Positions 3,323 to 63,070 of a stretch of DNA of 64,000 nt are shown piece after piece (the stretch's first letter is position 1; the number at the start of each line of letters is the position of its first letter). A program made the position numbers and the translations under genes. Below the pieces are notes generated by a model. That model did no database searches, was not told the origin of the DNA, and saw only the letters and a list, made by a program, of their open reading frames with translations. This DNA is from Mustelus asterias (taxonomy: Eukaryota), in NCBI RefSeq assembly GCF_964213995.1, contig NC_135812.1:46438001-46502000 (forward strand), given 5' to 3'.

Positions 3323-6100
3323 CTACGTAAAGAACCTACCTCTGATATCCGTCCTGTATCTCCCACCACGAACCCTATAGTTATGCCCCCTTGTAATAGC
3401 TCCATCCACCCGAGGAAATAGTCTTTGAACGTTCACTCTATCTATCCCCTTCATCATTTTATACACCTCTATTAAGTCTCCCCTCAGCCTCCTCCGCTCC
3501 AGAGAGAACAGCCCTAGCTCCCTCAACCTTTCCTCATATGACCTACCCTCCAAACCAAGCAGCATCCTGGTAAATCTCCTCTGCACTCTTTCCAGCGCTT
3601 CCACATCCTTCTTATAGTGAGGTGACCAGAACTGCACACAATATTCCAAATGTGGTCTCACCAAGGTCCTGTACAGTTGCAGCATAACCCCACGGCTCTT
3701 AAACTCCAACCCCCTGTTAATAAAAGCTAACACACTATAGGCCTTCTTCACAGCTCTATCCACTTGACTGGCAACCTTTAGAGATCTGTGGATATGGACC
3801 CCAAGATCTCTCCGTTCCTCCACAGTCTTCAGAACCCTACCTTTGACCCTGTAATCCACATTTAAATTTGTCCTACCAAAATGAATCACCTCACATTTAT
3901 CAGGGTTAAACTCCATTTGCCATTTTTCAGCCCAGCTTTGCATCCTATCTATGTCTCTTTGCAGCCTACAACAGCCCTCCACCTCATCCACTACTCCACC
4001 AATCTTGGTGTCATCAGCAAATTTACTGATCCACCCTTCAGCCCCCTCCTCTAAGTCATTAATAAAAATCACAAAGAGCAGAGGACCAAGCACTGATCCC
4101 TGCGGCACACCGCTAGCAACCTGCCTCCAATCCGAAAATTTTCCATCGACCACCACCCTCTGTCTTCGGTCAGACAGCCAGTTACCTATCCAATCGGCCA
4201 ACTTTCCCTCTATCCCACACCTCCTCACTTTCATCATAAGCCGACCATGGGGGACCTTATCAAACGCCTTACTAAAATCCATGTATATGACATCAACTGC
4301 CCTACCTTCATCAACACACTTAGTTACCTCCTCAAAAAATTCTATCAAATTTGTGAGGCACGACTTGCCCTTCACGAATCCGTGCTGACTATCTCGGATT
4401 AATCCGCATCTTTCTAAATGGTCGTAAATCCCATCCCTAAGGACCCTTTCCATCAATTTACCAACCACCGAAGTAAGACTAACCGGTCTATAATTACCAG
4501 GGTCATTTCTATTCCCTTTCTTAAACAGAGGAACAACATTCGCCATTCTCCAGTCCTCTGGCACCATCCCCGTGGACAGCGAGGACCCAAAGATCAAAGC
4601 CAAAGGCTCTGCAATCTCATCCCTTGCCTCCCACAGAATCCTAGGATACATTTCATCAGGCCCAGGGGACTTATCGACCTTCAGTTTATTCAAAACTGCC
4701 AAGACATCCTCCCTCCGAACATCTATTTCCTCCAGCCTATTAGCCTGTAACACCTTCTCTTCCTCAAAAACATGGCCCCTCTCCTTGGTGAACACTGAAG
4801 AAAAGTATTCATTCATCACCTCGCCTATCTCTACTGACTCCATACACAAGTTCCCACTACTGTCCTTGACCGGCCCTAACCTCACCCTGGTCATTCTTTT
4901 ATTCCTCACATAAGAGTAAAAAGCCTTGGGGTTTTCCTTGATCCGACCCGCCAAGGACGTCTCATGTCCCCTCCTAGCTCTCCTAAGCCCCTTTTTCAGC
5001 TCATTCCTTGCTAACTTGTAACCCTCAATCGAGCCATCTGAACCTTGTTTCCTCATCCCTACATAAGCTTCCCTCTTCCTTTTCACAAGACATTCCACCT
5101 CTTTTGTGAACCATGGTTCCCTCACTCGGCCATTTCCTCCCTGCCTGACAGGAACATACCTATCAAGGACATCCAGTATTTGTTCCTTGAAAAAGTTCCA
5201 CTTTTCATTCGTTCCTTTCTCTGACAGTTTCTGTTCCCAACTTATGCCCCCTAATTCTTGCCTAATCGCATCATAATTACCTCTCCCCCAATTGTAAACC
5301 TTGCCCTGCCGTACGGCCCTACCCCTCTCCATTGCAATAACAAAAGACACCGAATTGTGGTCACTATCTCCAAATTGCTCTCCCACAACCAAATCTAACA
5401 CTTGGCCCGGTTCATTTCCCAGTACCAAATCCAATGTGGCCTCACCTCTAGTCGGCCCATCCACATATTGTGTCAGGAAACCCTCCCGCACACACTGCAC
5501 AAAAACTGCCCCATCCAAACTATTTGACCTACAAAGGTTCCAATCAATATTTGGAAAGTTAAAGTCCCCCATGACAACTACCCTGTGACCCCCACACATA
5601 TCCATAATCTGCTTAGCAATTTCTTCCTCCACATCTCTATTACTATTTGGGGGCCTATAGTAAACTCCTAGCAACGTGACCGCTCCTTTCCTATTTCTAA
5701 CTTCAGCCCATATTACCTCAGTGTGCAGATCCCCCACGAAGTGCCTTTCCGCAGCCGTTAAACTATCCTTGATTAACAATGCCACTCCTCCACCTCTTTT
5801 ACCAGCTTCCCTACACTTAGTGAAACATCTATACCCCGGAAGGTCCAACAACCATTCCTGTCCTTGTTCTACCCACGTCTCCGTAATGGCCACAACATCG
5901 TAGTCCCAAGTACCAATCCACGCCCCAAGTTCATCTACCTTGTTCCGGATGCTCCTTGCATTGAAGTAGACACACTTCAACCCACCTTCCTGTCTACCAG
6001 TACCCACCCTTGACCCTGATACCTTCCCCAATATCTCACCACCCTCACTGACTTCTGGACTACAACTCCTTTTCCCACTCCCCTGACAAATTAGTTTAAA
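3323..6100 (-). CDS. CR1 ORF2: AP endonuclease + reverse transcriptase (truncated by TAG at 3323-3325; frame continues to TGA at 3197-3199)
   Basis: APE motifs YFNARS, AITETW, GVYYRPP, MGDFN, SDH; RT motifs [36 protein letters not shown]; CR1 C-terminus LEYCVQFWSP, LFSLERRRLRGDLIEVYK. Confidence 0.95.
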   Translation of the reverse strand, partial: FKLICQGSGKRSCSPEVSEGGEILGKVSGSRVGTGRQEGGLKCVYFNARSIRNKVDELGAWIGTWDYDVVAITETWVEQGQEWLLDLPGYRCFTKCREAGKRGGGVALLIKDSLTAAERHFVGDLHTEVIWAEVRNRKGAVTLLGVYYRPPNSNRDVEEEIAKQIMDMCGGHRVVVMGDFNFPNIDWNLCRSNSLDGAVFVQCVREGFLTQYVDGPTRGEATLDLVLGNEPGQVLDLVVGEQFGDSDHNSVSFVIAMERGRAVRQGKVYNWGRGNYDAIRQELGGISWEQKLSEKGTNEKWNFFKEQILDVLDRYVPVRQGGNGRVREPWFTKEVECLVKRKREAYVGMRKQGSDGSIEGYKLARNELKKGLRRARRGHETSLAGRIKENPKAFYSYVRNKRMTRVRLGPVKDSSGNLCMESVEIGEVMNEYFSSVFTKERGHVFEEEKVLQANRLEEIDVRREDVLAVLNKLKVDKSPGPDEMYPRILWEARDEIAEPLALIFGSSLSTGMVPEDWRMANVVPLFKKGNRNDPGNYRPVSLTSVVGKLMERVLRDGIYDHLERCGLIRDSQHGFVKGKSCLTNLIEFFEEVTKCVDEGRAVDVIYMDFSKAFDKVPHGRLMMKVRRCGIEGKLADWIGNWLSDRRQRVVVDGKFSDWRQVASGVPQGSVLGPLLFVIFINDLEEGAEGWISKFADDTKIGGVVDEVEGCCRLQRDIDRMQSWAEKWQMEFNPDKCEVIHFGRTNLNVDYRVKGRVLKTVEERRDLGVHIHRSLKVASQVDRAVKKAYSVLAFINRGLEFKSRGVMLQLYRTLVRPHLEYCVQFWSPHYKKDVEALERVQRRFTRMLLGLEGRSYEERLRELGLFSLERRRLRGDLIEVYKMMKGIDRVNVQRLFPRVDGAITRGHNYRVRGGRYRTDIRGRFFT

Positions 6101-7017
6101 CCCCCCTGAAGAGCCGTAACAAATTTCCCTCCGAGGATATTGGTGCCCCTCTGGTTCAGGTGCACCCCGTCCTGTTTGTACAGGTCCCACCTTCCCCAGA
6201 ACGTGTTCCAATTATCCACGTATCTGAAACCCTCCCTCCTACACCATCCCTGCAACCACATATTTAACTGCACTCTCTCCCTGTTCCTCAACTCGCTATC
6301 ACGTGGTACCGGCAACGTACCAGAGATGACCACATGTTTCGTCTTGGCTCTCAGCTTCCAGCCCAGCTCCAGAAATTCCTGCTTTAAATCCCCGTCCCTT
6401 CTCTTACCTATGTCATTGGTACCAATGTGCACCACGACTTGTGACTGTTTCCCCTCCCCCTTCAGAATCTGGAAAACACGGTCTGAGACATCACGGACCT
6501 TGGCATCCGGTAGGCAACATGCCATCCGTGAGTCTCTTTTGCTGCCACAGAACCTCCTATCTATCCCTCTAACTAACGAGTCCCCAATAACTATCGCCCT
6601 CCCGCTCTCCCCCTTTCCCTCCCGAGCCACAGAGACGGACACAGTGCTGGAGATCCTCTCACTGCGGCTCCCCACTGGTATGTCATCCCCCTCAACCGTA
6701 TCCAAAGCGGAATACTTGTTGCTAAGGGGAACGACCACAGGGGATCCCTGCACTGACTGCTTCCTCCCAGCCCCTCTCACCGTCACCCATCTGTTTTCAA
6801 TCCTCGGAGTAACTGTATTCCTAAAGCTTGTGTCTATGGCCATCTCTGCGTCCCTGATGATCCTAAGTTCATCCAACTCCAGCTCCAGTTCCCTAACACG
6901 GTTTTGGAGGAGCTGCAGATGGGTGCACTTCCCACAGGTGTAATCAGTAGGGACACTGTCGTCGTCCCTCACCTCAAACATAGTGCAAGAGGAACATTGC
7001 ACTGCCTGCACACCCAT
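6091..7017 (-). CDS. CR1 ORF1: zinc finger + coiled coil + SGNH esterase domain
   Basis: CxxC..CxxC (CSSC...CGKC), heptad segment LQNRVRELELELDEL, SGNH blocks IVIGDS, HIGTND, DGVH. Confidence 0.93.
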   Translation of the reverse strand: MGVQAVQCSSCTMFEVRDDDSVPTDYTCGKCTHLQLLQNRVRELELELDELRIIRDAEMAIDTSFRNTVTPRIENRWVTVRGAGRKQSVQGSPVVVPLSNKYSALDTVEGDDIPVGSRSERISSTVSVSVAREGKGESGRAIVIGDSLVRGIDRRFCGSKRDSRMACCLPDAKVRDVSDRVFQILKGEGKQSQVVVHIGTNDIGKRRDGDLKQEFLELGWKLRAKTKHVVISGTLPVPRDSELRNRERVQLNMWLQGWCRREGFRYVDNWNTFWGRWDLYKQDGVHLNQRGTNILGGKFVTALQGGLN

Positions 7018-7528
7018 CCCCTCTAGATACCTTGCCAGTACCAGGTAGAAAGTGCAAAAATGAATTCAACTCACCCCTGCTCGCCCTTTCAGCCTAAGCC
7101 CTGTGAGCCAAAGTCTTATAGCTCACACTCCACTGCCCACACCCGACGCTGCCCGCTGTATACTGCAGCCTACCTTTTATACTTCACGCGCTTAAAAAAC
7201 CCTTCCCAGACTCCTTTGCTGCCCGGTCATCATCGATCAACAGTGCCATCAGGGGACACATATCAAGTAATCTTAAAAATATTGAAGTCAATGGGAATTT
7301 GGGGAAAATTCTCCACTGGTTGGAGTCATACCTTGCACAAAGGAAAACTGTTAGGTTTGTTGGTGACCAACCATCTCAATCCCAGGACATCGCTGCTGGA
7401 GTTCCCCAACCATCTTCAGTTGTTTCATCAAAGACCTTCCCTCCAAGAACAAGACACACCTGGGTAATTTTCCACATTGTTCGCTGATTGCAGAGTGCTC
7501 AATACCACTCACAACTCCACTGATACTG

Positions 7529-17362: not shown

Positions 17363-19272
17363 CAACTAAACCAAACAAAGTCCTTCTTACCCAAGTTGAA
17401 GAATTGCATGGTGTCCCACCCTGTAGATTAACGCAAATGAGAAAGGCTGTTCTGCCATGTAATTTTAACTTGTTAAAACCAAATTAAAGCTAAAACTATA
17501 AGTTCGATGTTTTAGATGCAAATGAATGAATAGTAATAATAGAAGAAAAAAAACTTGAATTTATGCACTCTATCACAATGAAGCCCTGCTAACCACTGAT
17601 AAGCAACAACATCTTCTGTCTCGGGTGTTGAAAATGCAGAAGGAAATAGTCAATTAGTACTATGCCACTAGGTACGCAGAGTTATGTGTTCAATTGAATA
17701 ATCTATTCACAACATAGCATTGAGACAAAGATTTCCATTAATATTCTTCTTGAAAAATATTTAAATACTTTTACATTTATTTAGATTCCATGCCTGGGGA
17801 TATTACCTACAACAGTGAACAAGCAGGATGAGATTTTGCATATTTTGAAAAGAATAGAGTAAGAAATAATATTCAAGAAAACGTCATTTAGAGTGTCAAG
17901 CCGTTCTAAACACTTTCACCAATACCGTGGGTGAATTGCAAATTACTTCAGTCCTTCAATTTCCCCAGTTTTTAAGATGTAATGGCCATACCACCCAGTG
18001 AAAATCAGGAACCCCAAAGGAGGAAAGAAATCAATTGAAGGGAATTGGAGATGACGTACCCTTATGCTTCCAACCCTTAGATCTAAAGGAGATGAATGCA
18101 ATAGAGTCAGGCCTCTAATTGTGCAATAAATCATAAAGTTGCCAGGGCATCAAGAGTTAATTAGAATAGTTCTTTAAAATTGCTGCTGTTTTAATTAGCA
18201 ATCTGTGGCACCCACAATGAAACCATCACATGCTGCGGAAGGCCAGTGGGGAATTCTTTGTGGTACAGCTTTATTTTCACTTTCCTTCCTTCATTTTGTC
18301 TGAGTTTACTATTTATTTGTAAGAAACAGGATTGGACGAACAATTAATTCGCAGGACTATTTTATTTTTAAAGATTTCTTTGTTTTCTGCCGGGCAGTAG
18401 GTACAGGAAAAAATGCATGGTAATTAAATTGAAGTTTAATAACTGATTCAACCATCATGCAATTCAAAGTAATACAGTTGGCACTCCTACGTACTGTTTA
18501 ACTAAATATTAAATCACAAGCAATTGCTTCATGCTTTAATGAACAAGGACGGTTTCAATCGAACACAACACTGACTTGGCGACAGTAAACTCGGAACTTC
18601 CAATCAACCAACTGAAAGGAACTCTTAACCCAACACATTGTAGGAACCAAAGTACAATTCACATTCTACAGAGCCTGGTCTTTGTATTTTTCTCCCTCTC
18701 CTTCAACTCTATGACATATTACACAGACCGTACAATGTTGAGATAAATACCTCTCAGAGGATGTAATAAAGTGCTTTAGAAAAAAAAATAAGTCCTTGAA
18801 TGTCAGTTTACCGGAAATTGCCAAACTGTCCCAACTGAACACGCTCTCTTTACAAATCTCCCATCAGCGGTGCTAATTAGAATTCAGTTGCCCAGCAACA
18901 ATATGAACCGAGGCAGACGTTTGAACAAATTTGAGTTATCTCTTATCAAAAGAATCCAATAGAAACATTGTGATTCTGTCCCTGGTGTGAATTAAATGGA
19001 ATTACTCTGAAAGGTCCAGTGTAAACATTCACCTGGAGGATTTAATGTGGATTTACCGTGCATCTCCAGCTACGGTTGGGTTTAACTCAGGAGTTATTTC
19101 GGACAACAAGCTGTTCGGAAAGTGTGGCCCAAACTTTTCTTTTTAAAAATCAATGCTGCCCAGAAAATGGGTGGGGAAAACGTTATCATTTGAACGTATT
19201 GTCTGCACTTGGTTTTCGGGATTCCCCCTATACCAGCCCAGTGTGCAGCATGAATGCACCCAGCACACTTAC

Positions 19273-19520
19273 CCTTGTTCCTCCATCATCTCGTGGAGCT
19301 CCATGCATTTGAGCTCGACTCGTCTTTTCCGTTCGTGGTCCAGTATTTCTCGGTTGGCCTTTTTCACCACCAGCGTCGGTTCCATTTTCTTGGGGTCTTC
19401 TTCAGCAGTACACTCGGCGCCACTGTCCGGCCTTGGGCAGACTGCAGGCACGTTCCGCTGGCCGCAACCATTTGTGCAGCTTTCCCGAGGAGAGAGCGAG
19501 CCATCGCCGTTATTGTGCAT
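19273..19520 (-). CDS. SRRM3: First coding exon of a serine/arginine repetitive matrix protein with cwf21 domain, most like SRRM3
   Basis: MHNNGDGSLSPRESCTNGCGQRN...KKANREILDHERKRRVELKCMELHEMMEEQG matches the recalled SRRM3 cwf21 start (REILDHERKRRVELKCMELQEMMEEQG) better than SRRM2. Acceptor TTCCCTTGCAG| at 19550/19549, 29-nt UTR part with in-frame TAA, AACATG start at 19520, phase-2 donor GG|GTAAGT at 19273/19272. Confidence 0.85.
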
Positions 19521-20246
19521 GTTGATGACGAACGATTACCACTTCAACTCTGCAAGGGAAATACAAGAGAAAAAAACAGGACTTCAGTGTCATTCAATCC
19601 ACCATGAGATCATTCAAAGTGACGGGTTTGAACAGGAAGAGGGGCCGATTATGTCGGAGCCTTACTAGGGCACTATTTTAAGAGCAGGGCGGCGATTTTA
19701 TCTTTACCAAAACCTTTCCGGTGGAGAAGAGAGTGTCGAATTCAATAACATATCTGCCGTTTTACAAAGCCTGAAGCTGTTCATTATTAAATTCACTAAG
19801 TGACACCTGGTGGATAGGGTCGTACGGAACTAGTCCCAGCCTCGTTAATGATCTGCTAGTTTACCGAATGCATGGTGATTGCAGTTCAGTGATTCCGCTG
19901 GTTATTAACATGCATTGGAGATTACAGTGCTAAATTCAATTATGTCACTATTCCAGGAAGTATTACCGCTCAGCATAAACTCCACTGGTCAAGTATGTGG
20001 ATAACTGCCCAGATCCCAATGCAACTCTTTCAAACATACTGTACAGCCATACTCTACAAATACAATATCGTCATTAATCTAAAAATGTCTATTACCCATT
20101 CGCAGCCCCAACTTTAACCAGTCCGGTGCTGTTAGCATTGAGTCCAAACGTTCACAAAACCTATCACCATCCGTTGCGCTGGCCACAGCAAGCCCAGTTG
20201 ATACGTTGCTGAAATAAAGTAATGGAATTAGGAGTCTCTCTGTTGA

Positions 20247-20713
20247 GATACTGTCCACGGTGCTGAAAACTGGAACTCCTGGCGCTGTGCCGCTGTCCCG
20301 GGTCCAGAAAGCAGCTGCTTTTTGCCGTTGTCCGCGGTGCTGAAGAGAGGCTCCTGGCGCGGTGCCGCTGTCCAGGGTTCTGAAAGTAACTGTTTAGGTG
20401 CTGTCCACGGTTCTGAACAGGGGACTATTGGCGATGTGCCGCTGTCCAAGGTCCCGGAAGCAACTGTTTGACGCTGTCCACGGTGCTGAAAGCGGCAGCT
20501 CTCCAGCTCGATGTTGCTTTTCAACGCTGCTGAAGGCAGTTATCCGTGGAGTGTTGTTGTCCACGGTGCTAAAATCAGGAGCTCTCACTGCTGGGTTGCT
20601 ATCCACAGTGTTGATCAGACTTTAATCACAAGGTGCAAGTTTCCGAAGAGCTGCAGTATCCCGCTCTCACCATTTGTGGTGCAGTAAGGCGAAGCGCTGT
20701 GCAGGGTGCTGAC
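20247..20713 (-). promoter_or_regulatory. Tandem array of RE1/NRSE (REST-binding) motifs
   Basis: Minus-strand matches to TTCAGCACCnnGGACAG with cores starting (plus coordinates) at 20251, 20293, 20328, 20368, 20401, 20442, 20474, 20518, 20557, 20599 and 20697; e.g. TTCAGCACCGTGGACAGCGTC (20470-20490) and TTCAGCACCGTGGACAGTATC (20247-20267). Confidence 0.85.
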
Positions 20714-22764
20714 GCTGACTGCTCGCTATGCTTAACGCGGCTCTGATACCTCACTGATCCCTTCAGAAATCTGTCACGCCAATCTCTTGGTCAGATGGGA
20801 CAGACATACACCCTTTGAGCGTGACAGTGTGTCCGCCTGTGGAACTATCAATGTCGCCCGCTCCCGACCTCCGAAAATCTCTCTGAAGAAGAGCTCGAAA
20901 CGTGGCAGTTTAAACACTGAAAAAAGGTTTGCTTTGCCAGCTATCTGGTGTAATACTACGCGTCGACTGTTGCTAACACCTCACATATATAACTACAGCT
21001 CTCCACAGTACAGCGCGCACTTGACAACTCCCAAGCGGAAATTGGAGCTAAATCCTCCTTATGATATTAAAAGCCAGGCGCTATAATTAAAAATGTGTAG
21101 CATCGCCTCCCAACCGGTCAACTCGAATGTGGGGAAACAAAACAGGAAACGAAATTTGCAACTTCTACATTAGCTTAAATAGGACTTCCGTGCGAGATTT
21201 GGCGACTGTACAACTGGATCTATTCTTCGTTTCTTTTTTTAAAAAACAAAACTACATTTAAGCCCTACAGAAGCAATAAAGCTGGGATGTAATTATAACC
21301 CAGGCAGGAATAAATTCTCTTCAGGCTAACTCGTCACTTGCGTAAAACATAATCAGGTATTTCACTGAAAGGCAATCTGACGGTGCAAATGGAAGTGTGG
21401 AAGTGAAGACATACAGTTCCTACTTCTCTCTGAAATGAAAATGCCGCTTTCAATCGCCTGGTTTACCCACACCGTGCGGAAGAAAGGCCAAAGATCAAGA
21501 ATGCAATTTCTTCCAGTCCATTCCCATTGTATCTCCGCAGACCTCAAAATACAGGAAACTTAAGAGTTCATCATGCAGTTTGTCGCGTTTGTTACCCCCA
21601 CTGAACACAATTCCCGTCATCAAGATATCCTCGAACTTTCGTCTATCCTTGTAGTCATTTTATTCCTTATGGCTGATTTGGTAATCTCATTGACATCGAA
21701 ATGACAATACAGACTGAGGGAGTGAGGACTCGGCAAGCATGGCCGAATAAACAGCTTTTGATCAAATCCACAGAACGAACACAGCCGAATGTGAAAGGCC
21801 TCTGGCTCAGAGGTGTCTTTTGTCTGGTGGATTCAGGTTAAAGAGATATGCTCCCACTAACCACCGCCTCTCGATCAGTTCTTTTACTCCCCCCCCCACC
21901 CCCCGCCCACACAATAACACAACAAAAGCCACATCCAAACATCACTAAAGGTACTTGCTAAAATAAATCCCCCCCAAATAGTTGCTGAACTTCTGCTCAC
22001 ATCATGGGGAGATACTTTAACGTTAAGCAAAGCGCGTGTTTTGGGGTCTATTCACTCTGATCCCTCAGAGCTGCACATTAAGACAGTTTTCTGTAAAGTA
22101 TCGTATATTAAAGTGGGGATTACACAATCCTCAGGGTGAAACTACAATGCAACATTGTAGGAGCAAACGAACCATCGAAAATGTCTTCATTTCACGCCTT
22201 TGTATAAGAGAGCCACGATTCGCAAATGACCAATCTACGTCGGGCAGAACCCAAGTAGTCGCAGCTTCACTTGCAACAGCCCGTTGCACAGGGCTGTGCT
22301 CCCCTCCCCCTCTCCACCCCCCGCCGCACGTCAGCTCAGGGAAAGCATTCGTATAGCATTTCAATACCGATTTTCAGCTGTTTGTAAATTATTGATAGCA
22401 AAGAGAGAAGGTGTGACACCTTTCATCACTGGAAGATGATCAAGTGCACCTACCCAGCTATACAATGGTTCTCATGTATATTAGATGAGTCACATCATTA
22501 AAAGTTGAAGCAGGTAGGCCTGGATTCTATGTGAATTGCATTTTACCAGTTTCCTCTCCGAGAAACAAGCTAAGCTTAAAACATTGCTGCAGTAGCGCCC
22601 TAACACCCGACTCTTGTCTCTTTCCAATTCTAACAGGAGAAAGTGGAAATCTAGTTGAGAAGACCATCGCCAAGTCCCCATTGGTACACATTTGAAAACA
22701 TGACCTGACCACTATAGAACACATGGTACATTGTCAGGAACACTCTACTTCAGGATAACAAATA

Positions 22765-23125
22765 AACGACTTCCACTTATAGAGTGCTTTTCATCACCAC
22801 CAGATGTCTCAGTGCTATGTAGTTAATGAAGTACTGTTGGAGTGCAGTCAACTGTTGTAATGTAGGAAATACAGCAGTGAATTGCACACAGCAAGCACCC
22901 ATAAATAGCAATGTGATAAAGAGCAGATAATATTTTATATGATATTAATTGAGGGGTAACAATTGGTCAGATGATACCGGTGATATTTCATATGCTCTTC
23001 TTTGAAATTGTGCCATGGGAGTGTTTACATCCACCTAAGAGGGCAGCTAGGGCCTCCGTTTAATGCATCATCCAACAGACAACTCCTCTGACAGTGCAAC
23101 ACTCGCTCAACACTACACTGGAGGG
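22765..23125 (-). mobile_element. DeuSINE-like (SacSINE1/AmnSINE1-type) copy
   Basis: Minus strand ...GCACTGTCAGAGG...GGATGATGCATTAAACGGAGGCCC..CTGCCCTCTTAGGTGGATGTAAACACTCCCATGGCAC resembles the recalled Deu domain; L2-type tail ...AAAGCACTCTATAAGTGGAAG. Confidence 0.65.
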
Positions 23126-50175: not shown

Positions 50176-51168
50176 AACATAGAACATAGAACATAGAACA
50201 TTACAGCGCAGAACAGGCCCTTCGGCCCACGATGTTGCACCGACCAGTTAAAAAAAAAACTGTGACCCTCCAACCTAAACCAATTTCTTTTCGTCCATGA
50301 ACCTATCTACGGATCTCTTAAACGCCCCCAAACTAGGCGCATTTACTACTGATGCTGGCAGGGCATTCCAATCCCTCACCACCCTCTGGGTAAAGAACCT
50401 ACCCCTGACATCGGTTCTATAACTACCCCCCCTCAATTTAAAGCCATGCCCCCTCGTGCTGGATTTCTCCATCAGAGGAAAAAGGCTATCACTATCCACC
50501 CTATCTAAACCTCTAATCATCTTATATGTTTCAATAAGATCCCCTCTTAGCCGCCGCCTTTCCAGCGAAAACAATCCCAAATCCCTCAGCCTCTCCTCAT
50601 AGGATCTCCCCTCCATACCAGGCAACATCCTGGTAAACCTCCTCTGCACCCTCTCCAAAGCCTCCACATCCTTCCTGTAATGTGGGGACCAGAACTGCAC
50701 ACAGTACTCCAAGTGCGGCCGCACCAGAGTTGTGTACAGTTGCAACATAACGCTACGACTCCTAAATTCAATCCCCCTACCAATAAACGCCAAGACACCA
50801 TATGCCTTCTTAACAACCTTATCTACTTGATTCCCAACTTTCAGGGATCTATGCACACATACACCTAGATCCCTCTGCTCCTCCACACTATTCAAAGTCC
50901 TCCCGTTAGCCCTATACTCAACACATCTGTTATTCCTACCAAAGTGAATTACCTCACACTTCTCCGCATTAAACTCCATCCGCCACCTCTCGGCCCAACT
51001 TTGCAACCTGTCTAAGTCTTCCTGCAAACTACGACACCCTTCCTCACTGTCTACCACACCACCGACTTTGGTGTCATCAGCAAATTTGCTAATCCACCCA
51101 ACTATACCCTCATCCAGATCATTAATAAATATTACAAACAGCAGTGGCCCCAAAACAGATCCCTGAGC
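50176..51168 (-). mobile_element. Young 5'-truncated CR1 LINE with open RT C-terminal frame
   Basis: QGSVLGP..FADD..LEYCVQFWSP..GRFFTQRVVRDWNALP uninterrupted to the stop at 50275; (TTCTATG)n tail at 50176-50200. Confidence 0.93.
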
Positions 51169-51179
51169 TACACCATGAT

Positions 51180-51975
51180 TTGGAAATGTGAAGTTATCCA
51201 CTTTGGTAGCAATAATAGGAAGACAGATTATTACTTGAATGGGTGTAAATTGAGAGAGGTGGATATTCAGCGAGACCTTGGAGTCCTCGTGCATCAGTCG
51301 CTGAAAGTACGTGCGCAGGTAGAGCAGGCAATACAGAAGGCGAATGGTATGTTGGCCTTCATAGCAAGAGGATTTGGGTATAGGGATAGGGATGTTTTTC
51401 TGCAATTGTATAGGGCGTTGGTGAGCTCACACCTAGAGTATTGTGTGCAGTTTTGGTGTCCTTATCTGAGGAAGGATGCCCTTGCTATAAAGAGAGCACA
51501 GCGAAGGTTTACCAGGCTGATTCCTGAAATGATATGAGGAGAGACTAAGTCAGTTCGGATTATATTTGTTGGAATTTAGAAGAGTGAGGGGGAATCTCAA
51601 AGAAACTTATAAAATTCTAACAGGGTTTGACAGGGTAGATTCAGAAAGAATGTTCCCAATGGTGGGGAGTCCAGAGCTAGGGGTCATAGTTTGAGGATAA
51701 GACCTTAGAACTGAATTTGAGGACCTTTTAGAACTGAGGTGAGGAGAAATTTCTTCACCCAGAAAGGGTGGTGAATATGTGGAATTTACTACCACAGAAT
51801 AGTTGAGGCCAAAACGCTGTCTGATTTCAAGAAAAAATTAGATATAGTTCTTGGGGCTAAAGGGATCAAGGGATATGGAAAGGGGGATATTGGATATTGA
51901 ATTCAATGATCATTAAAATGAATGGTGGAGCAGGCTCAAAGGGCCGAATGGCCTGCTCCTGCTTCTAGTTTCTGT
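51180..51975 (+). mobile_element. 5'-truncated CR1 LINE
   Basis: KCEVIHFG..HLEYCVQFWCP..RRFTRLIP; 3' UTR GGGCCGAATGGCCTGCTCCTGCTTCTAGTTTCT. Confidence 0.9.
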
Positions 51976-53594: not shown

Positions 53595-53955
53595 GCAACA
53601 GCAATTTGCATTTATATAGTGCCTTTTATATGGTAAAATGCCCCCCGATGCTTCACAAGAGTGTTATCGAACAAAATGTGATACCAAGTCACAAAAAGCG
53701 ATGTTAGGGGAGATGAACAAAAGCAAATAGGTAGGTTTTGGAGGAAAGAGAAAAGGAGAAATAAAAAGATTTGGAGAGGGAATTCAAGAACTCAGCAACT
53801 GAAGGTCTGGCCAGCAATGGTGATATCATTAAAATTCGAGATTCTCAAGAGGCCAGAGATGGAGGGATACAGATATCTTGAGAAGTGTAGAGATGGAGGA
53901 ATTTGCAGGAATTCAAGGAAACGGAGAGATTACAAAACAAAGATGATTTTTAAAT
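53595..53955 (-). mobile_element. L2-like LINE 3' remnant
   Basis: Minus-strand end ...GGCACTATATAAATGCAAATTGCTGTTG typical of L2 tails; similar ends near 31895 and 45565. Confidence 0.55.
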
Positions 53956-53989
53956 TTGAAGCACTGTTTAATCGGGATCCTGTCTATGA

Positions 53990-55690
53990 CTAAGTGGAAT
54001 GTCCTGCTAGGAATGGCCACAAAGGAGAGGGATATGTTGACTGGTAGTGTCTTAGAGAGATGTGTTGACCCGTTAGAAAAAATCTCAATTACAAGGGAGG
54101 AATTGTTAGGTATTTTAGGAAACATTAAGACACCCAAATCCCCAGGGCCGGATGGCATCTATCCTAGACTCCTCAGGGAGGCGAGAGATGCAATTGTTGG
54201 GCCTCTAACAGAAATCTTTATTTCTTCACTGGACACAGGTGAGGTCCCAGAGGATTGGGGGAAAGCAAATGTGGTCCCGTTATTTAAGAAGGGTAGCAAT
54301 GATAACCCGGGTAATTATAGGCCGGTGAGCTTGACGTCTGTGGTAGGGAAGTTGTTGGAGAAGATTCTTAGAGATAGGATATATGCGCATTTAGAACTGA
54401 ATAATCTCATTAGCGATAGACAGCATGGTTTTGTACGAGGGAGGTCATGCCTCACAAATTTGGTTGAGTTTTTTGAGGAGGTGACAAAAACGATTGACGA
54501 GGGAAGGGCTGTGGATGTCATCTATATGGATTTTAGTAAAGCGTTTGACAAGGTCCCTCATGGCAGGCTGGTGCAAAAGGTTAAATCTCACGGAATAAAA
54601 GGTGAGCTAACTAGATGAGTGGAGAACTGGCTGAGCCATAGAAGACAGAGGGTAGCAGTGGGGGGGTCTTTTTCCGGTTGGAGGTCTGTGACTAGTGGTG
54701 TTCCGCAGGGCTCTGTACTGGGACCTCTGCTGTTTGTGATATATATATATAAATGATTTGGAGGAAGATATAGCTGGTGTGATCAGTAAGTTTGCGGACG
54801 ACACGAAGATTGCTGAAGTTGCGGATAGTGATGAACATTGTCAGAGAATACAGCAGGATATAGATAGGCTGGAACGTTGGACGGAGAAATAGCAGATGGA
54901 ATTTAATCCAGATAAATGCGAAGTGATGCATTTCGGTAGATCTAATGTAAGGGGGAGCTATACAATAAATGGCAGAACCATCAGGAGTATAGACACACAG
55001 AGGGACCTGGGTGTACAAGTCCACAGATCCTTAAAGGTGGCAGCACAGGTGGAGAGAGTGGTGAAGAAGGCATATGGCATGCTTGCCTTTATTGGACGGG
55101 GTATAGAATATAAAAGTTGGCATATGATGTTGCAGCTGTATAGAACGATGGTTAGGCCACATTTGGAATACTGCGTCCAGTTCTGGTCGCCACACTACCA
55201 GAAGGATGTGGAGGCTTTGGAGAGAGTACAGAGAAGGTTTACCAGGATGTTGCCTGGTATGGAGGGTCTCAGCTATGAGGAGCGATTGGGTAAACTGGGG
55301 TTGTTCTCCCTGGAAAGACGGAGGATGAGGGGCGACCTAATAGAGGTGTATAAAATTATGAAGGGCATAGATAGGGTGAACAGTGGGGAGCTTTTTCCTA
55401 GGTCGGAGGTGATGAACACAAGGGGTCACGGGTTCAAGGTGAGGGGGGCAAGATTCAACACAGATGTCAGGGGGACGTATTTTACACAGAGGGTGATGGG
55501 GGCCTGGAGTGCACTGCCAAGCAAGGTGATTGAGGCGGACACACTGGGATCGTTTAAGACTTATCTAGATAGCCACATGAACAGTCTGGGAATAGAGGGA
55601 TACAAAAGAATGGTCTAGTGGGCACATGAGTGGCGCAGGCTTGGAGGGCCGAAGGGCCTGTTCCTGTGCTGTATTGTTCTTTGTATTCTC
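53990..55690 (+). mobile_element. 1.7-kb 5'-truncated CR1 LINE (RT pseudogene)
   Basis: Full set of RT motifs; TGA at 54616-54618, (AT)n expansion frameshift at about 54740, TAG near 54890; CR1 3' UTR. Confidence 0.93.
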
Positions 55691-62731: not shown

Positions 62732-63070
62732 GTACTGGAAGGGTGCTGCGCTCTGATGCTGCGGTACAGGGAGGATGCTGCACTGTGACAGTGCGGACTG
62801 GGAGGGTGCTGCGGTACTGGGAGGGTGCTGCGCTCTGACAGTGCGGTACTGGGAGGGTGCTGTGCTCTGACAGTGCGGTACTGGGAGGGTGCTGATCTCT
62901 GACAGTGCGGTACTGGGAGGGTGCTGCGCTCTGACAGTGCGGTACTGGGAGGGTGCTGCGCTCTGACAGTGCGGTACTGGGAGGATGCTGCGCTCTGACA
63001 GTGCGGTACTGGCAGGGTGCTGTGCTCTGAAGCTGTGGTATGGGTAGGGTGCTGTACTCTGATGCTGCAG
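62732..63070 (+). repeat. 32-bp minisatellite, about 10.5 copies
   Basis: Unit GTACTGGGAGGGTGCTGCGCTCTGACAGTGCG with diverged outer copies and one truncated unit. Confidence 0.95.

What the first reader, a model, noticed from the sequence alone, without database searches (positions are those of the whole stretch)
20247..20713. Array of 10-11 RE1/NRSE (REST) sites just upstream of the SRRM3-like start exon
Seen: same-orientation motifs TTCAGCACC-GT-GGACAG (20251, 20474), TTCAGCACC-GC-GGACAA (20328), TTCAGAACC-nn-GGACAG (20368, 20401), TTTAGCACC-GT-GGACAA (20557), GTCAGCACC-CT-GCACAG (20697) and weaker copies (20293, 20442, 20518, 20599). The motif is retained while the spacers have diverged. 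Established: REST binds the 21-bp RE1 with a 2-nt spacer, RE1s usually occur singly or in pairs, REST represses SRRM4, and SRRM3/4 drive neural microexon splicing including REST-inactivating splicing. Inference: tandem amplification created a multivalent REST silencer that could make this double-negative switch unusually tight in sharks.
Basis: partly seen in the sequence, partly recalled or inferred. Interest (0 to 1): 0.85.

Follow-up and report, generated by a model that had tools for sequence, protein, structure and literature searches.

The report
Ten REST sites in SRRM3 leader
The first, non-coding exon of a shark gene for the nerve-cell splicing regulator SRRM3 carries ten head-to-tail copies of the DNA motif that the repressor REST binds in other vertebrates, which likely keeps this promoter shut outside neurons; the same genome holds several other arrays of this size, a larger form of the tandem clusters already described in human.

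Summary
Ten same-strand RE1/NRSE motifs lie at 20247-20713 (five strong, two medium, three weak), plus one decayed copy. The gene is SRRM3.

A spliced contig from a related species puts the whole array inside a 628-base or longer non-coding first exon, not in an intron or the upstream promoter. The core is a two-site, 73-77-base unit, tandemly repeated; four relatives show no gain or loss of a unit. It is single-copy, not a dispersed repeat.

It is not unique in kind. Four of 21 other loci fetched hold 9-13 sites, some inside coding exons, and head-to-tail RE1 groups of up to five, with the same proposed origin, are in print for human. REST repression of mammalian SRRM3 is known.

Against the 'unusually tight shark switch': SRRM4's start and an internal SRRM4-like start exon of SRRM3 have no canonical site within 30 kb, and between species the motifs were no better conserved than spacers (weak test). 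REST binding, the shark REST gene and bony-vertebrate orthologues remain unchecked. No earlier scan finding matched.

Verdict: a likely multivalent REST silencer, a new variant of a known kind.

The parts
20247..20713 (-). Array of ten head-to-tail RE1/NRSE motifs plus one decayed copy
20268..20490 (-). Core of the array: three full copies of a 73-77-base unit, each with a strong A-type site and a variant B-type site
20491..20573 (-). Older, degenerate copy of the unit: A-type site (20.8 bits) and decayed B-type site 20514-20534 (2.8 bits)
20247..20267 (-). RE1, 29.3 bits, A-type; no B-type partner follows
20289..20309 (-). RE1 variant, 17.7 bits, B-type (intact right half)
20324..20344 (-). 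RE1, 28.2 bits, A-type; perfect core in all four relatives laid
20364..20384 (-). RE1, 29.2 bits, B-type
20397..20417 (-). RE1, 29.3 bits, A-type
20438..20458 (-). RE1 variant, 16.2 bits, B-type (intact right half)
20470..20490 (-). RE1, 32.1 bits, A-type, perfect core
20595..20615 (-). Weak RE1-like site, 15.3 bits
20693..20713 (-). RE1, 23.0 bits, 10 bases inside the 5' end of the RNA-like contig
20096..20723 (-). SRRM3 exon 1, non-coding, at least 628 bases; the 5' end given is only where one contig stops, the true start is not mapped
   Evidence: run X20 contig covers 20096-20723 and is joined to exon 2; GT donor follows 20096
19550..20095 (-). Intron 1, 546 bases, GT...AG with a pyrimidine tract
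   Evidence: joint and letters between its sides; sequence
19273..19549 (-). SRRM3 exon 2, first coding exon: ATG at 19520, start of the cwf21 domain; in-frame stop at 19538 upstream of the ATG
19001..22000 (.). CpG-rich stretch (observed/expected 0.72-0.76; most other 1-kb bins of the window are below 0.5), promoter-like

Best explanation
The array is a tandemly duplicated row of ten RE1 motifs in the non-coding first exon of shark SRRM3 that likely loads several REST molecules just downstream of the transcription start and would keep the long, cwf21-bearing SRRM3 transcript off wherever REST is present, even at low levels. Shown here: the motifs, their head-to-tail order, the two-site repeat unit, the place in a spliced leader exon (in a relative), the gene identity and the stable unit number in four relatives. 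Taken from mammalian and fish work: REST binds RE1 one molecule per site, recruits corepressors, represses SRRM3, and is inactivated by SRRM3/4-driven splicing. Inferred: binding in sharks, multi-site occupancy, and a lower REST threshold for release, which would make SRRM3 the late, locking arm of the REST-SRRM feedback and leave SRRM4 the less REST-dependent, priming arm.
For: Ten sites of 15-32 bits where the rest of the window has none. The exact core is enriched 189 to 3 over its reversed control in this genome, so a REST-type motif is under use here. Other arrays sit in or beside genes of neuronal type: a piccolo-type zinc-finger exon, an intermediate filament, a receptor ligand-binding exon, a GPCR. 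A-type cores are 93% alike while spacers of the same duplications are about 70% alike. No unit is gained or lost in 4 of 4 relatives laid; the only indels listed in the array are in one T run. The array lies in a CpG-rich stretch at the 5' end of the transcript. In mouse outer hair cells REST overexpression cut Srrm3 by 68% and left Srrm4 unchanged (PMC7652395, passages); in breast cancer lines SRRM3 rose more than 2-fold on REST knockdown and fell about 3-fold on overexpression (PMC4459148, section 8). This fits the asymmetry here: 10 sites at SRRM3, 0 of 15 bits or more in 30 kb around SRRM4's first exon and 0 in 10 kb around SRRM2's. Tandem sites each bind one REST (PMC8096226, passages) and are reported to recruit REST better than single sites (PMC1557810, passages).
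Against: No binding or expression data from any shark. Between species, motif bases were no better conserved than spacer bases in the part of the table shown (4 of 87 against 1 of 66 plus one indel, p = 0.39; 40 of 111 rows visible). B-type left halves have drifted like spacers and one copy has decayed, so not all ten need be bound. An internal exon like SRRM4's first exon, with its own ATG and donor, lies 172 kb downstream with no site of 15 bits or more in 30 kb and could bypass the array. The exon structure rests on one contig of one run whose RNA nature is a guess by the tool. The REST gene was not found in 580 kb searched.
Confidence: 0.72

Rival explanations
1. One or two sites do the work and the rest are neutral by-products of old tandem duplication, now slowly decaying; repression is ordinary REST repression with no special threshold.
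For: One copy has decayed to 2.8 bits, three score 15-18 bits, and B-type left halves drift. No excess conservation of motifs between species was seen. Young, microsatellite-like RE1 repeats exist in this genome (L013), so copies can multiply mechanically.
Against: Four A-type cores stay 93% alike and all three B-type right halves are invariant while spacers fell to about 70%. All four strong sites that could be rescored stay at 26 bits or more with the relatives' letters. Unit number is stable in four relatives.
Confidence: 0.17
2. Double duty: the DNA binds REST, and the same sequence in the mRNA leader dampens translation, because the motif's two free bases sit in a Kozak-like context and supply near-cognate start codons that would divert scanning ribosomes. 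This is compatible with the best explanation.
For: Seven of the ten sites give GTG, CTG or TTG with a purine at -3 and G at +4, none gives ATG, and the 657-base leader has four upstream ATGs and an in-frame stop 18 bases before the main ATG.
Against: The context follows automatically from the RE1 consensus, so it needs no selection. The copies share ancestry, so the lack of ATG is only a few independent events. The leader folds no better than shuffles (z = 0.47). No ribosome data.
Confidence: 0.08
3. The likeness to RE1 is incidental: a locus-specific minisatellite, repeat remnant or coding repeat without REST binding.
For: Tandem Repeats Finder reports a 73-base period. Satellites with weak RE1 likeness exist in this genome (L019, L038).
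Against: Two perfect cores and four with one mismatch. Single copy in the genome search. Matches to other arrays are mostly motif-length and weak. No reading frame runs from the array into the coding region. The gene is a known REST target in mammals.
Confidence: 0.03

Closest known systems
Tandem head-to-tail RE1 clusters of human (SNAP25, L1CAM, KCNN4; groups of up to five), Johnson et al. 2006, PMC1557810 (passages read; its supplementary list could not be read)
   Same: Head-to-tail orientation, variable spacing, proposed origin by tandem duplication, proposed recruitment of REST at low concentration.
   Different: Ten sites here, 9-13 at four other loci; a two-site higher-order unit; placed in the leader exon of the splicing factor that inactivates REST. 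Whether human SRRM3 is on that paper's list is unknown.
Tandem NRSEs in the first exon of human CELSR3, Tang et al. 2021, PMC8096226 (passages read)
   Same: Several NRSE motifs in a first exon, each bound by one REST molecule in one orientation.
   Different: CELSR3 has four half-sites forming two non-canonical sites; here there are ten canonical-spaced sites over 467 bases.
REST repression of mammalian SRRM3 and the REST-SRRM3/4 feedback, PMC7652395 (passages) and PMC4459148 (section 8 and passages)
   Same: Same gene; REST sensitivity of Srrm3 greater than that of Srrm4 in mouse outer hair cells.
   Different: The passages read map no RE1 in SRRM3. The cis-element, its multiplicity and the shark case are not described there.
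Multiple NRSEs across protocadherin clusters, including coding exons, PMC2926608 (passages read)
   Same: Many sites per locus, exonic sites, NRSEs predicted in a cartilaginous fish (five in elephant shark).
   Different: Those are one site per duplicated gene over a large cluster, not a compact array at one promoter.

Membership tests
Canonical RE1/NRSE | Left half and right half separated by 2 bases, matching the 21-base consensus | tested here: met
   Ten sites at 15-32 bits, two perfect cores, four with one mismatch. The consensus comes from the finding and from recall; a fish consensus is quoted in PMC2926608.
Canonical RE1/NRSE | Motif enriched over control in the host genome, as expected if REST acts there | tested here: met
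   189 exact cores against 3 for the reversed pattern.
Canonical RE1/NRSE | At a neuronal or neuroendocrine gene that REST represses | tested here: met
   Gene is SRRM3; repression is shown for mouse and human only.
Canonical RE1/NRSE | Bound by REST and needed for repression | not testable with these tools
   Needs gel shift, ChIP or CUT&Tag, and reporters.
Canonical RE1/NRSE | Motif positions conserved above flanks across species | tested here: inconclusive
   4 of 87 against 1 of 66, p = 0.39; relatives only 4-6% diverged and 40 of 111 rows shown. Between copies within the array, A-type cores are better kept than spacers.
Canonical RE1/NRSE | Intact REST gene in the genome | tested here: inconclusive
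   Not found in 400 kb upstream of POLR2B or in 180 kb beside another Rpb2-family gene; no REST query sequence was at hand.
Tandem RE1 cluster (Johnson 2006) | Sites within 100 bases of each other, all head-to-tail | tested here: met
   Spacings 42, 35, 40, 33, 41, 32, 83, 42, 98, all on the minus strand.
Tandem RE1 cluster (Johnson 2006) | Signs of origin by local duplication | tested here: met
   73-base period; aligned units share spacer sequence at about 70%.
Transposon-borne or dispersed RE1 family | Unit with flanks found at many unrelated loci | tested here: not met
   One match in the genome (a search that skips common words); other arrays give mostly motif-length, weak matches.
SRRM3 | cwf21 exon at the 5' end, SRRM_C exon downstream on the same strand, MDH2 upstream | tested here: met
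   SRRM_C 320 kb downstream; named hits nearly all SRRM3; malate-dehydrogenase-family exons 1.17 Mb upstream, same strand. SRRM2 and SRRM4 lie elsewhere.

The most novel reading that the evidence does not exclude
Sharks have repeatedly and independently amplified single RE1 sites into 9-13-site 'super-silencers' at selected neural genes, even inside coding exons where the motif becomes a protein repeat. At SRRM3 the array sets the lowest REST threshold in the REST-SRRM loop, so SRRM4 (no site) primes and SRRM3 (ten sites) locks the neuronal splicing switch, and site number acts as a tunable timer of derepression.
Probability: 0.25. Interest if true: 0.72.

Novelty: new variant of a known kind. 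Interest (0 to 1): 0.47.

Why it matters
SRRM3 and SRRM4 switch on the neural microexon programme and inactivate REST. In vertebrates their neural expression is set at the level of transcription (PMC8797185, passages), yet the ten paper searches run here returned no map of RE1 sites in SRRM3. A ten-site array in the leader exon, against none at SRRM4, offers a concrete cis-basis for the unequal REST sensitivity of the two paralogues reported in mouse hair cells. It also supplies a natural series (2 to 13 sites per locus in one genome) for asking whether site number sets the REST level at which a gene is released, an idea proposed in 2006 from human clusters of at most five. If the orthologous array exists in mammals, it bears on islet, hair-cell and neuroendocrine-tumour regulation of SRRM3.

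Tried and rejected
Dispersed repeat: rejected (one genomic match; mostly motif-length matches to other arrays).
Coding repeat or N-terminal extension of SRRM3: rejected (in-frame stop at 19538).
Structured RNA or known RNA family: none (z = 0.47; 0 Rfam matches in 18000-23000).
An intronic place for the array (possible donor near 20670): rejected by the contig.
Bony-vertebrate orthologues through metagenomes: 15 loci returned, 37-75% identical and apparently non-vertebrate SRRM2-type by identity; none holds a site of 15 bits or more. No information on vertebrates.
RE1-derived peptides in N-terminal extensions of SRRM3 gene models: 19 of 121 proteins had an extension; only chance-like 5-residue hits.
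Homologue search with the SRRM4 C-terminal exon: no hit at 1e-9; the representative search then gave SRRM4.
Locating REST by synteny: not found.
No listed holder was on record as RNA, which says nothing on expression; X20 is a guess of RNA.
Naming the genes at L002, L004, L011, L012, L013, L015, L016, L018: no Pfam match other than reverse transcriptase among 147 open frames scanned. L035-L039 were not scanned against Pfam.
A genome-wide tally of the two spacer bases was not made, so whether ATG-forming spacers are avoided in the leader is open.
Papers not held: Nakano 2019 and Torres-Mendez 2019; either may mention RE1 sites in Srrm3 or the internal start. The supplementary list of human tandem RE1s could not be read.
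Earlier scan findings: nothing relevant.

Full report
Observation. The region 20247-20713 holds the motifs listed, all on the minus strand. A degenerate pattern matched 15 times in the window against 2.93 expected, none of 100 shuffles reaching 15, and 9 of the matches are in the array. A matrix trained on 61 sites from other loci of this genome, not on this array, scores ten sites at 15.3-32.1 bits; no position among 126,836 elsewhere in the window reaches 15. Five sites score 25 or more, two 21-23 and three 15-18. The eleventh (20514-20534) scores 2.8 and is a relic. The RE1 consensus itself is taken from the finding and from recall. That it is a used motif in this genome is shown by 189 exact cores against 3 for the reversed control.

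Anatomy. The array has a higher-order unit of 73-77 bases carrying a strong A-type site and a variant B-type site. There are three full copies (20268-20490), one older degenerate copy (20491-20573), a lone A site (20247) and two outliers (20595, 20693). Among copies, A-type cores are 93% identical, spacers 68-72%, B-type right halves 100% and B-type left halves 71% (pairwise counts share ancestry).

Gene. The exon at 19273-19549 encodes the start of a cwf21 domain. Its peptide is identical to a protein that NCBI names SRRM3-like in Mustelus asterias, and the named hits among the 120 listed are nearly all SRRM3. An SRRM_C exon lies 320 kb downstream on the same strand and malate-dehydrogenase-family exons 1.17 Mb upstream, matching MDH2-SRRM3 fused gene models in a hamster and a thrush. 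SRRM2 and SRRM4 lie on other contigs.

Place in the gene. I laid 4 of the 21 runs listed. In run X20 (organism F; RNA is the tool's guess) one contig covers 20096-20723, skips a GT...AG intron (19550-20095), covers exon 2 and runs on into letters that encode the next exon of SRRM3. The whole array is therefore inside a non-coding first exon of at least 628 bases, beginning 10 bases after the contig's 5' end, in a CpG-rich stretch. A contig end is not a mapped start site, and this is one contig from a relative. The spliced leader is 657 bases, has four upstream ATGs and an in-frame stop at 19538, so the array cannot extend the protein. It folds no better than shuffles.

Conservation. All four relatives cover the array in one contig each, at about 4-6% divergence, with no unit gained or lost; the only indels listed in the array are in a T run. 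Units differ from each other far more than species do, so the duplications are older than these splits (inference). The table showed 40 of 111 differences, complete for X11 up to 20399: coding exon 1.2%, intron 4.4%, 3' leader 4.6%, array part 3.3%. Within the array part, 4 of 87 motif bases and 1 of 66 spacer bases differ (p = 0.39), so no excess constraint on motifs was seen. Three of the four motif differences raise the score in the relatives, one lowers it, and all four sites stay at 26 bits or more. DNA of bony-vertebrate orthologues could not be obtained, so the claim that this is special to sharks is untested.

Is it unique? The sequence is single-copy, but the architecture is not. Two pair-pattern searches gave 38 and 24 matches against 3 and 1 for controls. 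I fetched 21 other loci, leaving out three simple-repeat-like ones (on C8, C18:55 Mb and C794). Four hold 9-13 sites of 15 bits or more (L009, L010, L011, L013), two hold 5-6, seven hold 3-4, six hold two or fewer in a cluster, and two are satellites with only weak sites (L019, L038). Most of these loci trained the matrix, so their scores are favoured. All clusters are head-to-tail, each with its own spacer, which points to independent local duplications. Where Pfam gave a name, most genes are of neuronal type: a piccolo-type zinc-finger exon, an intermediate filament, a receptor ligand-binding exon and a GPCR. The piccolo-type frame and an InaF-motif frame carry the sites as coding repeats. 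A neuronal pentraxin-like first exon (L009) and a MAP1-like exon (L014) are named from recall only. Eight of the loci scanned stayed unnamed.

Paralogues. No site of 15 bits or more lies in 30 kb around the first exon of SRRM4 or in 10 kb around that of SRRM2. SRRM3 also has an internal exon 53% identical to an SRRM4 N-terminus (P0122), with its own ATG and donor, 172 kb downstream and without a site in 30 kb. If used as a start, it would bypass the array. The REST gene was not found in the 580 kb searched, so the other arm of the loop is unchecked in sharks.

Mechanism. Most likely several REST molecules bind just downstream of the start and hold the long SRRM3 isoform off until REST falls very low (0.72). 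The support from other species is as follows. Each tandem site binds one REST (PMC8096226, passages). Tandem sites are reported to recruit REST better and at low concentration (PMC1557810, passages). REST represses SRRM3 in human lines (PMC4459148, section 8) and in mouse outer hair cells, where Srrm4 was unaffected (PMC7652395, passages). Rivals: one or two working sites with neutral extras (0.17), an added translational brake from near-cognate starts in the leader (0.08), incidental likeness (0.03).

Known or new. Head-to-tail RE1 clusters, their duplication origin and the low-concentration idea were published in 2006 for human, with 27 pairs within 100 bases and groups of up to five. First-exon tandem sites are known at CELSR3. 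Ten searches of the held library listed nothing that describes an RE1 array at SRRM3 or arrays of nine or more sites; most hits were seen only as listings. Two key papers were not held and the 2006 supplementary list was unreadable, so prior mention at human SRRM3 is not excluded.

Noticed in passing
L010:2701-3313 (G000:C24, 59.405 Mb): Thirteen RE1 motifs at a 48-base period inside a 679-codon open frame with an InaF motif; the DNA motif is read as a 16-residue protein repeat.
   Followed up: partly
L005:2947-3061 (G000:C19, 84.89 Mb): Four RE1 motifs inside a coding exon with a piccolo-type zinc finger, read as Ala/Pro/Ser repeats.
   Followed up: partly
L009:3010-3424 (G000:C23, 51.418 Mb): Nine RE1 motifs at a 50-base period just after a first exon that resembles a neuronal pentraxin (name recalled).
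   Followed up: partly
L013:2738-3170 (G000:C756): Young, microsatellite-like array of 17-19-base units alternating canonical and 4-base-spaced RE1 cores; gene not named.
   Followed up: partly
L011:2545-3010 (G000:C20, 32.376 Mb); L002:5058-5236; L016:2962-3242: Further arrays of 9-12, 5 and 6 sites with diverged spacers; neighbouring genes not named.
   Followed up: partly
L041 (G000:C12:46285452-46285565, minus): Internal SRRM3 exon homologous to the first coding exon of SRRM4, with its own ATG and GT donor: a candidate alternative start.
   Followed up: partly
L040, about 170 bases upstream of the SRRM4 ATG: A perfect RE1 right half with a left-half-like word one base too close, seen by eye; it scores under 10 bits.
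   Followed up: no
window 21011-21240: Only 3 differences in 230 bases in run X18 against about 5% next to it: a candidate conserved promoter element upstream of exon 1.
   Followed up: no
window 3323-7065, 50275-51426, 53947-55618: Long open frames of LINE-type retroelements (endonuclease and reverse transcriptase, by eye), ordinary intronic or intergenic repeats.
   Followed up: no
window 62732-63062: 32-base minisatellite, about 8 copies at 92% identity.
   Followed up: no
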